Source: Escherichia coli O157:H7 (GTDB lineage Bacteria > Pseudomonadota > Gammaproteobacteria > Enterobacterales > Enterobacteriaceae). Taken from it: a DNA stretch of 64,000 nt. The stretch lies in the NCBI RefSeq assembly GCF_013167455.1, contig NZ_CP038328.1. The stretch is one strand, 5' to 3'. Positions 33,201 through 36,200 of the stretch are shown here, in pieces. A program made the position numbers. Position 1 is the first letter of the stretch. Every line of letters starts with the position of its first letter.

Positions 33201-36200
33201 TCCGGCGAAAACCGGCAACATTTTTGTGCTCGATCGTCGTAATGGCGAACTGGTGGTTCCGGCACCGGAAAAACCGGTTCCCCAAGGTGCTGCCAAAGGC
33301 GATTACGTTACCCCTACTCAACCATTCTCGGAACTGAGCTTCCGTCCGACGAAAGATTTGAGCGGTGCGGATATGTGGGGAGCCACCATGTTTGACCAAC
33401 TGGTGTGCCGCGTGATGTTCCACCAGATGCGCTATGAAGGCATTTTCACGCCGCCATCTGAACAGGGCACGCTGGTCTTCCCGGGTAACCTGGGAATGTT
33501 TGAATGGGGCGGGATTTCCGTTGATCCAAATCGTGAAGTGGCAATTGCCAACCCAATGGCACTGCCGTTTGTTTCGAAACTGATCCCACGCGGTCCGGGT
33601 AACCCGATGGAGCAGCCGAAAGATGCCAAAGGCACGGGTACGGAATCCGGCATTCAGCCACAGTACGGTGTACCGTATGGTGTCACGCTCAACCCGTTCC
33701 TCTCACCATTTGGTCTGCCATGTAAACAGCCAGCATGGGGTTATATCTCGGCGCTGGATCTGAAAACTAATGAAGTGGTGTGGAAGAAACGTATTGGTAC
33801 GCCGCAGGACAGTATGCCGTTCCCGATGCCTGTACCGGTGCCGTTCAATATGGGTATGCCGATGCTGGGCGGGCCAATCTCCACGGCGGGTAACGTGCTG
33901 TTTATCGCCGCTACGGCAGATAACTACCTGCGCGCTTACAACATGAGCAACGGTGAAAAACTGTGGCAGGGTCGTTTACCAGCGGGTGGTCAGGCGACGC
34001 CAATGACCTATGAAGTGAATGGTAAGCAGTATGTGGTGATCTCCGCAGGCGGTCACGGTTCATTTGGTACGAAGATGGGTGACTATATTGTGGCTTATGC
34101 GCTGCCGGATGATGTGAAGTAAGACTTGCTCAGATTGCTGACAACGTGCGCGTTGTTCATGCCGGATGCGGCGTGAACGCCTTATCCAGCCTACAAAATT
34201 GTGCAAAATCAATGGATTGCACAGGTAACGTAGGCCTGATAAGCGTAGCGCATCAGGCAGATTTGCGTTTGTCATCAGTTTAATGCCCGGAGAGATCCGG
34301 GCATATTCCCGAATACGGTCTTTTTATACCGTAAACCCTAACATCATCCCCGTATCTTCATGCTCCAGCAGATGGCAGTGCGCCATATAAGCACGTTCTT
34401 TCGGTGCGTCGTGATTAAACTTCACCAGCACTTCACTGACATTGCCTTCTACCTTAACGGTATCTTTCCAGCCCGCGCGATGAGCCGCTGGCGGTTTGCC
34501 ATTTTCTGACAAGATACGGAACTGCGTGCCGTGAATATGGAACGGATGCAGCATCATGTCGCCCACGCCAGAGATAACCCAACGTTCGTACTGCCCTTTC
34601 GCCGCCGCAAACATCGGCTTATTCATATCAAACGCCTGACCGTTGATTTTATTGGCATGGTGGAAATCGAACTTCCCGCCGTGGTTCATATGATTCATAT
34701 TGCCGTGCCCCATATGGCCCATCATCTGGCTGTGATCCATTCCGGCCATCGCCTGATCGCCATATTTCTCCATTAGCATCTGCATCCCCATCATATCGAG
34801 CATCGGGTCCATAGAAAGTTGCAGCTTGCGTACCGTCAGCCCTTCCAGCGAAGGTAACGCAGGCAGGCTACTTAATGTGTCTGGCAAAGCACCGGAAGCA
34901 CTAATAGCAATCGGCTGAATCCGCATTACCGGATGAGGCTTATCAAACGGCGCAATCGCCATCCCCATCTGGCTGACCGGCAGCGTCACCAGGTCAAAGG
35001 GTTTGTTGTCGTTAACCTCCACCAGCACTTCAAAACGCTCGCCCATCAGCACCGGCAGCTCGTTCACCTTCACCGGTTCAGGTAGCAGACCACCGTCGCT
35101 GGCAATCACATAAAGCGGGCGATTGTCGCTGGTGGCGAAATTGAGCGAGCGGGCATTACAGCCATTGAGCAAACGCAGGCGCAGCCAACCACGCGGGGCA
35201 GCGTGTTGCGGGTAGATTGCACCGTTGGTCAGCAACGTATCGCCAAACCAGCCCACGGCGGCGGTCATCACATCCAGTTGATAATCAATCTGCCCGTCGG
35301 CGCTAAATTTCTTATCCTGAACGATCACCGGAACATCATCGATACCCCACTGTTTTGGCAGCATTAATTTCAGGATCTCGTCATCTTCAATCACCACCAG
35401 ACCAGCCAGCCCCATCGCCACCTGTCGCCCGGTCTTGCCATGTTGATGTGGATGGAACCAGCAGGTAGCGGCAGGTTGATCAACGTTCAACGTCACCGAG
35501 CGCTTGCCACCTGGCGGAATAATTCCCTGTGGGCCGCCGTCGACTTCACCCGGTACTTCCAGCCCGTGCCAGTGCAACGTCGTCTCTTCCGTCAGTTGGT
35601 TATAGATATCAACCGTTACCGCTTTGCCGCGCTGTAATTTCACCGCCGGCCCCAGCAGATTGCCGTTATAGCCCCAGGTAGTTGCAGTTTTCTCGCCAAA
35701 GGTAGACTGACCTGCGCCAATAGTTAACTGAATGCGATTACGGGCATCGGTCGTGAGCAAATCAGGGATCGGTAACGTTGGGCGTTCCGCCGCAAAGACT
35801 GCACGGCTCCACAGTGGCAAGGCTGAAGCCACACCCAGTGCGACGGAATATTTCAAGAAATCACGACGTTGCATAGTTATTTCCTTATTCTTAAGCAGGC
35901 GAAACAAAATCAAACGTTGAGCATAGTCCTTCCCCTTACGGGAAGGTCAAGCCGCAGACACAATTTAATCGACAATAATGGTCGTCGCCTCGCTCGCAGT
36001 GTGCTAACGTTTATCTTCTTTAAGCCCCTGGTAGAAGCAATGAAGACGTTTTTCAGAACAGTGTTATTCGGCAGCCTGATGGCCGTTTGCGCAAACAGTT
36101 ACGCGCTCAGTGAGTCTGAAGCCGAAGATATGGCCGATTTAACGGCAGTTTTTGTCTTTCTGAAGAACGATTGTGGTTACCAGAACTTACCTAACGGGCA

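What the first reader, a model, noticed from the sequence alone, without database searches (positions are those of the whole stretch)
34123..34323. BIME (paired REP units) in the convergent gcd-cueO spacer
Two REP palindromic units in opposite orientation plus a further hairpin (atgcccggagagatccgggcat) occupy the 201-bp spacer. BIMEs are reported to bind IHF and DNA gyrase and to stabilise upstream mRNA.
Basis: partly seen in the sequence, partly recalled or inferred. Interest (0 to 1): 0.2.

Follow-up and report, generated by a model that had tools for sequence, protein, structure and literature searches.

The report
BIME-1 repeat beside gcd-cueO terminator
The spacer between the converging E. 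coli genes gcd and cueO holds an ordinary, already described 150-bp repeat (a BIME-1: two REP palindromes around an IHF-site linker) next to the hairpin that ends both transcripts, and about half of sequenced E. coli strains lack the repeat.

Summary
The window is E. coli, with 100% identity to O157:H7 strains. The 201-bp gcd-cueO spacer (34123-34323) holds these parts:
- a Y-type REP at 34161-34194 (1 mismatch to the consensus);
- a Z1-type REP on the opposite strand at 34230-34258 (0 mismatches);
- a 35-bp L linker between them with a perfect IHF core, AATCAATGGATTG, at 34207-34219.

This is the BIME-1 (RIB/RIP) subtype. Alignment with 12 paralogous copies shows the unit is 150 bp (34132-34281), with inverted terminal motifs.

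The "further hairpin" (34283-34304) is not part of the BIME. It is invariant in every allele. In K-12 it is listed as an experimentally mapped bidirectional terminator for gcd and cueO. The BIME therefore sits in the gcd 3'UTR.

The element is dispensable:
- about 50% of 5,426 complete E. coli genomes carry it;
- about 45% have a 46-bp spacer with the hairpin only;
- about 4% have a deletion remnant that keeps the left terminal motif.

IHF is the documented partner for this subtype; BIME-2 binds gyrase with higher affinity. This is already known biology, so interest is low.

One side observation may be new. At 8 of 13 BIME-1 loci, but not this one, the local terminator palindrome is duplicated on both sides of the insert.

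The parts
34120..34122 (+). gcd stop codon (TAA)
   Evidence: ORF 31714-34122. RefSeq records annotate gcd over the match.
34132..34281 (.). Complete BIME-1 unit, 150 bp: left terminal motif, Y REP, L linker, Z1 REP, right terminal motif
   Evidence: Paralogs at fepA-entD, yfiE-srmB, satP-mog and tkt-phb align over this whole span. The unit is 150 bp in 12 of 13 loci, and the window copy is 89% identical to the consensus.
34132..34160 (.). Left terminal motif (AGATTGCTGACAACGTGCGCGTTGTTCAT). It is an inverted repeat of the right terminal motif and is retained in the 77-bp deletion allele.
   Evidence: Conserved in all paralogs. The inverted pair 34136-34144 / 34269-34277 is, pair I4. The 77-bp allele keeps the motif.
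34161..34194 (+). Y-type REP (palindromic unit), with CTAC at 34191-34194 facing the linker
   Evidence: 1 mismatch to the Y consensus, 0 expected by chance. Folds at -15.1 kcal/mol. Matches the REP half of the Rfam naRNA4 model.
34195..34229 (.). L linker of BIME-1, itself a small palindrome
   Evidence: Rfam ES036 (the L-linker family) matches 34195-34237 at 37.2 bits, E = 3e-6, against a gathering score of 37.6. Hairpin of -8.1 kcal/mol.
34207..34219 (+). IHF consensus core AATCAATGGATTG at the centre of the unit (position 76 of 150)
   Evidence: Exact match to WATCAANNNNTTR. The same position in all 12 paralogs carries a core with one mismatch, ATTCAATATATTG in 8 of them.
34230..34258 (-). 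Z1-type REP, with GTAG at 34230-34233 on the plus strand facing the linker
   Evidence: 0 mismatches to the Z1 consensus, 0 expected by chance. Folds at -12.9 kcal/mol.
34259..34281 (.). Right terminal motif (AGATTTGCGTTTGTCATCAGTTT)
   Evidence: Conserved in the paralogs. This stretch was part of the metagenome search pattern, so its conservation among those copies is partly by construction.
34283..34304 (.). Locus-specific hairpin (9-bp stem, GAGA loop): the shared 3'-end hairpin, or bidirectional terminator, of gcd and cueO. It is not a REP.
   Evidence: Invariant in all five alleles aligned and present in the divergent Escherichia loci L015 and L017. The K-12 bidirectional-terminator list has entry 5 at 138648-138678, which maps to window 34279-34309, detected in log and stationary phase, with no REP name attached. 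The coordinate mapping was validated.
34324..34326 (-). cueO stop codon
   Evidence: ORF 34324-35913 on the minus strand. Annotated as cueO.
34505..34525 (+). Approximate position of a published Rho termination region for gcd-direction read-through, antisense to cueO. It lies outside the spacer.
   Evidence: PMC7815308, supplementary file 2: K-12 position 138442, minus strand, antisense to cueO, score 3.44, p = 5.4e-6. This maps to about window 34515.

Best explanation
The spacer holds a single BIME-1 element (also called RIB or RIP). This is a 150-bp, largely palindromic, non-autonomous repeat made of a Y REP and an inverted Z1 REP around the conserved L linker, flanked by inverted terminal motifs. 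It lies between the gcd stop codon and the native hairpin that marks the 3' ends of both convergent transcripts.

Shown here: its identity, anatomy and copy family; its insertion/deletion polymorphism; and that the hairpin belongs to the locus rather than to the repeat.

Taken from published K-12 data: transcripts from both strands end at the hairpin, and gcd-direction read-through is stopped by Rho about 190 nt further on, inside antisense cueO.

Inferred mechanism: in strains that carry the element, gcd mRNA is transcribed through it. The RNA folds into a long Y:Z1 hairpin with L at the tip. That structure can act as a barrier to 3'-to-5' exonucleases and as a partial transcription attenuator, while the hairpin defines the mature 3' end. 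As DNA, the central L motif offers an IHF site (a perfect core in this copy) that would bend the DNA between the two convergent units.

The element is missing from about half of the strains and has decayed by deletion in others. Its local role is therefore accessory or near neutral. It is best seen as a resident copy of a mobile repeat family, thought to be mobilised by the REP-associated Y1 transposase (TnpA-REP, also called RAYT).
For: Identity. The Y and Z1 consensus sequences match with 1 and 0 mismatches. An IHF core lies in the linker. Rfam's ES036 family, which corresponds to the L linker, matches the linker at E = 3e-6. PMC3333891 defines BIME-1 as y plus z1 with a long conserved L linker that frequently carries an IHF site, occurring as single copies. 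PMC1187871 gives the BIME-1 size as about 140 bp.

Family. Copies that are 86-90% identical over 94-99% of positions 34150-34285 occur elsewhere in E. coli genomes. Thirteen loci were aligned, the unit is 150 bp, and the window copy is 89% identical to the consensus.

Polymorphism. 2,736 of 5,426 genomes cover at least 80% of the filled allele. 2,962 genomes hold the left motif. The 46-bp and 77-bp alleles were sequenced and aligned. [quoted passage not shown]

Terminator. The K-12 list of bidirectional terminators between convergent genes, their ref 47, is reproduced in Table S16 of bioRxiv 10.64898/2026.03.23.713779. It includes this hairpin for gcd:cueO.

Rho region. PMC7815308, supplementary file 2.

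REP hairpins as 3'-end stabilisers and attenuators. PMC6061677 and the 2026 preprint.

RNA folds. z = -6.5 and -6.4.
Against: No experiment on this particular copy was found. The IHF ChIP supplement is not held. The Term-seq table of curated 3' ends lists none for gcd or cueO. The preprint reports that terminal REPs are not generally associated with longer mRNA half-lives (heading of section 39), so a stabilising effect here is not assured.

The hairpin lacks a U-tract on either strand, and the consensus scan did not call it a terminator. The mapped ends may therefore be processing or trim-back ends rather than true termination sites.

Absence of the element from about 45-50% of genomes argues against an important local function.
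Confidence: 0.9

Rival explanations
1. The element is purely selfish or neutral repeat DNA. It is a relic insertion of a non-autonomous element with no effect on gcd, on cueO or on the chromosome at this site.
For: Presence/absence polymorphism at about 50% filled and 45% empty, plus a deletion remnant at about 4%. Other genera carry unrelated repeats or only a terminator at the same spot. A sister Escherichia lineage has the core amplified 8-fold there. REP effects are reported to be context dependent and not uniform.
Against: The copy is well preserved: Z1 is perfect, Y has 1 mismatch and the IHF core is perfect. A diverged orthologous copy persists in a lineage whose gcd is about 94% identical (L015). 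This suggests long retention, although gene conversion among copies could give the same picture.
Confidence: 0.4
2. The BIME itself, rather than the downstream hairpin, is the terminator of gcd and/or cueO. REPs between convergent genes can act as bidirectional terminators.
For: 78 of the 306 mapped bidirectional terminators between convergent genes overlap REPs. BIMEs have been reported to attenuate transcription (refs cited).
Against: At this locus the mapped overlap of transcript ends is 138648-138678 in K-12, which is the non-REP hairpin, and no REP name is attached to that entry. Strains without the BIME keep the hairpin unchanged. For cueO the hairpin comes first, 19 nt after the stop.
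Confidence: 0.1
3. The element is a gyrase-binding BIME that relieves the positive supercoils building up between the convergent genes, which is the gyrase half of the first reader's gloss.
For: Convergent transcription accumulates positive supercoils (general knowledge). BIMEs as a class bind gyrase.
Against: [quoted passage not shown] BIME-1 has the lower affinity. This copy has Z1, the L linker and a single unit.
Confidence: 0.1
4. The L linker encodes a small RNA (ES036/CssrF), or the REPs give a nucleoid-associated RNA similar to naRNA4.
For: Rfam ES036 matches at 37.2 bits, E = 3e-6, and the naRNA4 model matches in part at 34.8 bits.
Against: Both matches are below their gathering scores (37.6 and 59.5). 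No promoter-like site was found in 33900-34560. The matches simply reflect the fact that those families were built from BIME sequences. The 2026 preprint finds no nucleoid role for REP325/naRNA4.
Confidence: 0.05

Closest known systems
BIME-1 (also called RIB, reiterative IHF BIME, or RIP, repetitive IHF-binding palindromic element) of E. coli
   Same: Y and Z1 REPs in inverse orientation, with GTAG and CTAC facing a long conserved L linker. An IHF core lies at the centre. It is a single unit of about 140-150 bp, extragenic, at the 3' end of transcription units, and polymorphic for presence or absence among strains.
   Different: Nothing essential differs. This copy's L linker departs from the family consensus at about 9 of its 35 positions. 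That variation turns the usual one-mismatch IHF core (ATTCAATATATTG) into a perfect one (AATCAATGGATTG) and lengthens the L hairpin. It also lacks the flanking hairpin duplication seen at 8 of 13 family loci.
BIME-2 and atypical BIMEs (for example REP325)
   Same: They contain Y REPs, are extragenic and can form RNA hairpins in 3'UTRs. They act as partial Rho-dependent attenuators and as mRNA stabilisers.
   Different: BIME-2 pairs Y with Z2, uses short S linkers and occurs as tandem arrays that bind gyrase strongly. The window element has Z1, the L linker and one unit.
REPINs of Pseudomonas and other genera (REP doublets mobilised by RAYT)
   Same: Two inverted REPs plus a spacer form one non-autonomous unit, associated with a Y1 (HUH) transposase. 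Nunvar et al. call such doublets analogous to E. coli BIME-1.
   Different: The REP sequence families differ. REPINs have no conserved IHF-site linker. Mobilisation of this copy was not tested here.
Bidirectional terminators between convergent genes (list of 306 in E. coli K-12)
   Same: The 34283-34304 hairpin is entry 5 of that list, for gcd:cueO.
   Different: It has weak A and U tracts (3 A, 2 U). It may therefore work together with Rho-dependent termination downstream and exonucleolytic trimming.

Membership tests
REP / palindromic unit (Y and Z1 types) | Imperfect palindrome of 30-40 nt that matches the Y or Z1 consensus | tested here: met
   Y matches 33 of 34 positions at 34161-34194. 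Z1 matches 29 of 29 at 34230-34258. Shuffles give 0 matches. The hairpins fold at -15.1 and -12.9 kcal/mol with internal mismatches.
REP / palindromic unit (Y and Z1 types) | Conserved GTAG tetranucleotide at the foot of the palindrome (CTAC on the inverted copy) | tested here: met
   CTAC lies at 34191-34194 and GTAG at 34230-34233. The definition is from PMC3333891.
REP / palindromic unit (Y and Z1 types) | Extragenic and highly repeated in the genome | tested here: met
   The element lies between two stop codons.
BIME-1 (RIB/RIP) | One Y and one Z1 REP in inverse orientation, as a single unit rather than a tandem array | tested here: met
   Only one Y and one Z1 occur in the spacer.
BIME-1 (RIB/RIP) | The long conserved L linker between the REPs | tested here: met
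   The 35-bp linker aligns with the L linker of 12 paralogs. Rfam ES036, the L-linker family, matches at E = 3e-6.
BIME-1 (RIB/RIP) | An IHF recognition sequence in L | tested here: met
   AATCAATGGATTG at 34207-34219 is an exact WATCAANNNNTTR match.
BIME-1 (RIB/RIP) | Actual IHF binding, in vitro or in vivo | not testable with these tools
   Binding is reported for the class. No data for this copy were retrievable.
BIME-2 | Z2 REP, short S linker and tandem repetition | tested here: not met
   The second REP is Z1 with 0 mismatches. The linker is L, and there is a single unit.
Rfam RF02751 ES036 (CssrF) sRNA | Score at or above the gathering threshold of 37.6 bits | tested here: not met
   37.2 bits at 34195-34237. 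The sequence is homologous to the L linker, but it is not filed as an sRNA gene.
Rfam RF02564 naRNA4 | Score at or above the gathering threshold of 59.5 bits over the full model | tested here: not met
   34.8 bits, and only the REP hairpin half of the model aligns.
Intrinsic (Rho-independent) terminator, tested on the 34283-34304 hairpin | G+C-rich stem-loop directly followed by a U-tract | tested here: not met
   The stem is present, with 9 pairs of which 6 are G-C. No T-run follows on either strand, and the scan did not call the site.
Bidirectional terminator between convergent genes (published K-12 list) | Transcript 3' ends from both strands overlap at one hairpin | not testable with these tools
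   This comes from the literature only: entry 5, K-12 138648-138678, gcd:cueO, detected in log and stationary phase. The K-12 allele is 98.5% identical to the window.
MITE-like non-autonomous transposon | Terminal inverted repeats | tested here: met
   The left end AGATTGYTGACAA pairs with the right end TTGTCATCAGTYT (pair I4).
MITE-like non-autonomous transposon | Target-site duplication flanking the element | tested here: not met
   At gcd-cueO the flank-repeat score is 5, against a null mean of 6.3. The only repeat is an 8-bp TTCATGCC that overlaps the element. At 8 of 13 other loci a 19-28-bp duplication of the local palindrome is present.

The most novel reading that the evidence does not exclude
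BIME-1 elements, including the ancestor of this copy, may integrate at terminator palindromes by a structure-directed event that duplicates the whole palindrome. The duplications measure 19, 19, 25 and 28 bp at the four loci where filled and empty alleles were compared, and in each case they equal the hairpin. After insertion, the left hairpin copy keeps the A-run and the right copy keeps the T-run. A duplication whose length tracks the palindrome rather than a fixed stagger would point to cleavage at the base of an extruded hairpin or cruciform. That differs from the IS200/IS605-style insertion without duplication that is usually assumed for REP-associated Y1 transposases. Recombination between the two hairpin copies would explain the precise, frequent loss of BIME-1. 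The gcd-cueO copy would then be an exception that lost, or never had, the left hairpin copy. I could not check whether the papers from the 1990s already describe this.
Probability: 0.3. Interest if true: 0.5.

Novelty: already known. Interest (0 to 1): 0.12.

Why it matters
For the finding itself, very little. It correctly labels a known repeat class at a site that is filled in K-12. The analysis clarifies that the neighbouring hairpin, and not the BIME, marks the ends of both transcripts.

The site is a clean natural experiment. About half of E. coli strains carry the 150-bp element in the gcd 3'UTR, and the other half have only the hairpin. The current claim that REPs tune 3'UTR behaviour could therefore be tested with isogenic alleles.

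The side observation is that BIME-1 copies are typically bracketed by a duplicated terminator palindrome. If it is not already published, it constrains the unknown in vivo insertion mechanism of REP/BIME elements.

Tried and rejected
- Literature search for "ES036" returned only grant numbers.
- The K-12 RefSeq record in the collection shows no REP feature at the site, so I could not confirm the official REP number. A search of the preprint's supplement for REP10 and REP9 found nothing.
- Boccard & Prentki 1993 and Bachellier et al. 1997 are not held. The mBio 2015, NAR 2018 and NAR 2011 IHF ChIP supplements are not held either.
- The curated Term-seq table has no gcd or cueO 3' ends.
- The consensus scan called no promoter in 33900-34560 and did not call the hairpin a terminator. 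Its only terminator-like hits are inside cueO at 34481-34501, and that region does not fold better than shuffles.
- I looked for a second, degenerate copy of the hairpin left of the BIME at gcd-cueO and found none.
- I tried to read the 46-bp allele as a clean empty site. It is not clean: the filled allele has GACTTGCTC where the 46-bp allele has CCAT.
- I first read the 77-bp allele as the empty site. I rejected this because it retains the BIME's left terminal motif.
- ORFs that cross the spacer (45 aa on the plus strand, 71 aa on the minus strand) lie in repeat sequence and were not pursued.
- The BIME-2/gyrase and sRNA readings were rejected (see the rival explanations).
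Full report
**1. What is in the sequence**

The window is E. coli. 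Positions 34023-34423 are 100% identical to O157:H7 strains and 98.5% identical to K-12, and the flanking genes are annotated gcd and cueO. gcd ends at 34122 and cueO, on the minus strand, ends at 34324.

The Y-REP consensus matches 34161-34194 on the plus strand with one mismatch. The Z1-REP consensus matches 34230-34258 on the minus strand with none. Neither is found in 100 shuffles of the window. The two REPs are inverted relative to each other, with CTAC and GTAG facing the 35-bp linker.

The linker contains an exact IHF core, AATCAATGGATTG, at 34207-34219. Only about 0.001 such matches are expected by chance in a stretch that short.

Rfam's ES036 family, which corresponds to this linker, matches 34195-34237 at 37.2 bits. 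That is 0.4 bits under its gathering score, with E = 3e-6. The naRNA4 model matches only through its REP hairpin.

The separate hairpin ATGCCCGGA-GAGA-TCCGGGCAT lies at 34283-34304.

**2. Which kind of BIME, and how large**

PMC3333891 defines BIME-1 as a y plus z1 pair in inverse orientation around a long, well-conserved L linker that frequently carries an IHF site, occurring as single copies. BIME-2 is y plus z2 with short linkers, occurring as tandem arrays. This element is therefore a BIME-1, also known as RIB or RIP.

A BIME-only query (34150-34285) finds copies elsewhere that are 86-90% identical over 94-99% of its length, in genomes that lack the gcd-cueO copy. These lie at fepA-entD, yfiE-srmB, satP-mog and tkt-prohibitin.

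The alignments show that the repeated unit extends well beyond the REPs. It includes a left motif (AGATTGYTGACAAMGTGCGC...) and a right motif (...GCGTTTGTCATCAGTYT) that are inverted repeats of each other.

I analysed 13 distinct loci: five from the complete genomes and eight more from a metagenome scan. The unit is 150 bp in 12 of them. The window copy (34132-34281) is 89% identical to the consensus. An IHF-like core sits at unit position 76 in every copy.

The family's usual core, ATTCAATATATTG, has one mismatch to the IHF consensus. This copy's variant linker makes the core perfect.

Only 9 bp after the gcd stop and the last 42 bp of the spacer are locus-specific.

**3. The hairpin is the locus's own terminator**

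The hairpin is invariant in all five alleles aligned and is present in the divergent Escherichia loci L015 and L017.

[quoted passage not shown] Entry 5 of that table is 138648-138678, GGAAAUAUGCCCGGAUCUCUCCGGGCAUUAAA, for gcd:cueO. It was detected in log and stationary phase, and no REP name is attached to it.

The coordinate mapping is w = 34324 + 138633 - k, which places that entry at window 34279-34309. I validated the mapping by correctly predicting the position of the neighbouring REP11 terminator at 30954-30986.

The hairpin has no U-tract on either side. A Rho termination region is reported for the gcd direction about 190 nt further on, antisense to cueO (PMC7815308 supplementary file 2).

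This fits the published model in which Rho terminates downstream and exonucleases trim the transcript back to a stable stem-loop (PMC6061677).

It follows that gcd transcripts include the BIME-1 in their 3'UTR. cueO transcripts reach the hairpin 19 nt after their stop codon, before they reach the BIME.

As RNA, the spacer folds into a long Y:Z1 hairpin with L at the tip, plus the independent terminator hairpin (z = -6.5 and -6.4).

**4. Population and evolutionary status**

Of 5,426 complete E. coli genomes:
- 2,736 cover at least 80% of the filled allele;
- 2,962 contain the left terminal segment;
- this gives about 50% filled, about 4% remnant and about 45% short.

The short allele has a 46-bp spacer, TAA-CCAT-hairpin. 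The 77-bp allele keeps the BIME's left terminal motif and joins it to the hairpin exactly at an 8-bp repeat, TTCATGCC, which occurs on both sides of the missing segment in strain GPEC1354. It is therefore a microhomology deletion of a filled allele and not an empty site.

There is also a second filled haplotype with a more canonical, 7-bp-shorter L linker, seen in GPEC1354 and S87.

Outside E. coli proper, in lineages whose gcd is about 94% identical to the window:
- one has the 46-bp allele with the identical junction (L017);
- one has a diverged BIME-1 at the same site (L015);
- one has eight tandem Y-L-Z1 units of 107 bp each (L020).

Both states are therefore old or have been exchanged by recombination.

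Other enterobacterial genera keep the convergent gcd-cueO pair. Their spacers hold their own REPs, boxC-like repeats (named from memory of the boxC repeat, not tested) or just a terminator. In Trabulsiella the terminator begins with the same ATGCCCGG. I infer from this that the hairpin-only state is ancestral.

Presence/absence polymorphism of BIME-1 is already documented in general (PMC1187871).

**5. How it most likely works**

Shown: the identity, structure, family and dispensability of the element.

From the literature on the class:
- IHF binds the L linker;
- BIME-2 rather than BIME-1 is the strong gyrase site;
- REP hairpins can stabilise upstream mRNA and attenuate transcription in a way that depends on context.

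Inferred for this copy: it is an accessory gcd 3'UTR structure and a potential IHF bend between two convergent units. It is carried by a resident copy of a mobile repeat. No experiment on this copy was retrievable.

**6. Comparison with what is known, and verdict**

This is a textbook BIME-1 at a site that is also filled in K-12 (98.5% identical). It is already known and of low interest.

**7. A side observation that may be worth more than the finding**

At 8 of 13 BIME-1 loci the 45-nt flanks share a direct repeat scoring 13-26. The null distribution, from mismatched flank pairs, has mean 6.3 and 99th percentile 11. In each of these cases the repeat is the local terminator-like palindrome.

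Filled and empty alleles were compared at four loci: satP-mog, yfiE-srmB, ysgA-metE and yfeX-pbp4B. The empty allele has one palindrome. The filled allele has two direct copies, of 19, 25, 19 and 28 bp respectively, on either side of the 150-bp unit.

At most of these loci the left copy keeps the upstream A-run and the right copy keeps the downstream T-run. The satP-mog hairpin and the hairpin beside the BIME-1 near apt/ybaN are both in the mapped bidirectional-terminator list (entries 1 and 35).

A duplication whose length follows the palindrome suggests structure-directed cleavage at the base of a hairpin or cruciform. It also provides direct repeats that could mediate precise loss of the element.

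The gcd-cueO copy does not show this signature (score 5).

The papers I could search do not mention it, and one review states that REPs lack MITE signatures. The key papers from the 1990s are not held, so its novelty is unverified.

Noticed in passing
L007 vs L028 (satP-mog); L006 vs L029 (yfiE-srmB); L043 vs L151 (ysgA-metE); L124 vs L152 (yfeX-pbp4B); also L011/L030 (tkt-prohibitin), L121, L035, L126: At 8 of 13 BIME-1 loci the local terminator palindrome is present as two direct copies, one on each side of the 150-bp unit. At the four loci where an empty allele was found, that allele has a single copy. The duplication (19-28 bp) equals the palindrome. The null 99th-percentile score is 11, against observed scores of 13-26. 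This signature is absent at gcd-cueO.
   Followed up: partly
L020:2637-3590 (Escherichia sp. MOD1-EC7003, gcd-cueO spacer): The same site carries eight tandem Y-L-Z1 units with a 107-bp period, each with the IHF-like core. The array sits between the normal left and right terminal motifs, and the terminator hairpin has one substitution. BIME-1 is described as single-copy, so this is an amplified BIME-1 core.
   Followed up: partly
L011:190-545 (strain Ec-FL1-1X, tkt-prohibitin spacer): There is a tandem duplication of about 172 bp comprising the BIME-1 plus its hairpin. This gives two BIME-1 units and three copies of the hairpin GGGCCGCGAAAGCGGCCC. ST131 (L030) has one unit, with a 12-bp internal deletion.
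   Followed up: partly
L013-L027 (gcd-cueO spacers of other Enterobacteriaceae): The convergent gcd-cueO pair is conserved, but the spacer is colonised by different repeat families. Pseudocitrobacter, Yokenella and two unnamed genera carry boxC-like CCCTCTCCC...GGGAGAGGG repeats (the name is from memory, not tested). Lelliottia, Silvania and Pluralibacter carry genus-specific REPs. Trabulsiella has a plain hairpin plus T-run.
   Followed up: partly
window 34308: The window has C where K-12 and the other four aligned alleles have T (ATATTCCCG against ATATTTCCG), just 3' of the terminator hairpin on the gcd strand. This weakens an already poor U-tract. The 100%-identical hits are mostly O157:H7 strains.
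   Followed up: no
window 30954-30986: A REP-like hairpin (GCCATGCCGGATGCAACACATCCGGCAACTTCA) corresponds to K-12 REP11. It is listed as a mapped bidirectional terminator in the hpt-can region.
   Followed up: partly
window 61261-61294: A second, more degenerate Y-type REP lies here (3 mismatches: GTCGGATGCGGCGTGAACGCCTTATCCGACATAC). Its context was not examined.
   Followed up: no
L123 (metagenome contig): The left flank matches the locus of L126 (the hairpin near apt/ybaN) but the right flank matches fepA-entD, joined through a BIME-1. This is either an assembly chimera across the repeat or a real recombination. L129 and L116 likewise share one flank with another locus.
   Followed up: no
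window 34481-34505 (+), inside cueO antisense: Terminator-like hits on the gcd strand (TGGCGGTTTGCCA followed by TTTTCTG) lie about 10 nt upstream of the position that maps to the published Rho termination region (about 34515). The region does not fold better than shuffles (z = 0.14).
   Followed up: partly
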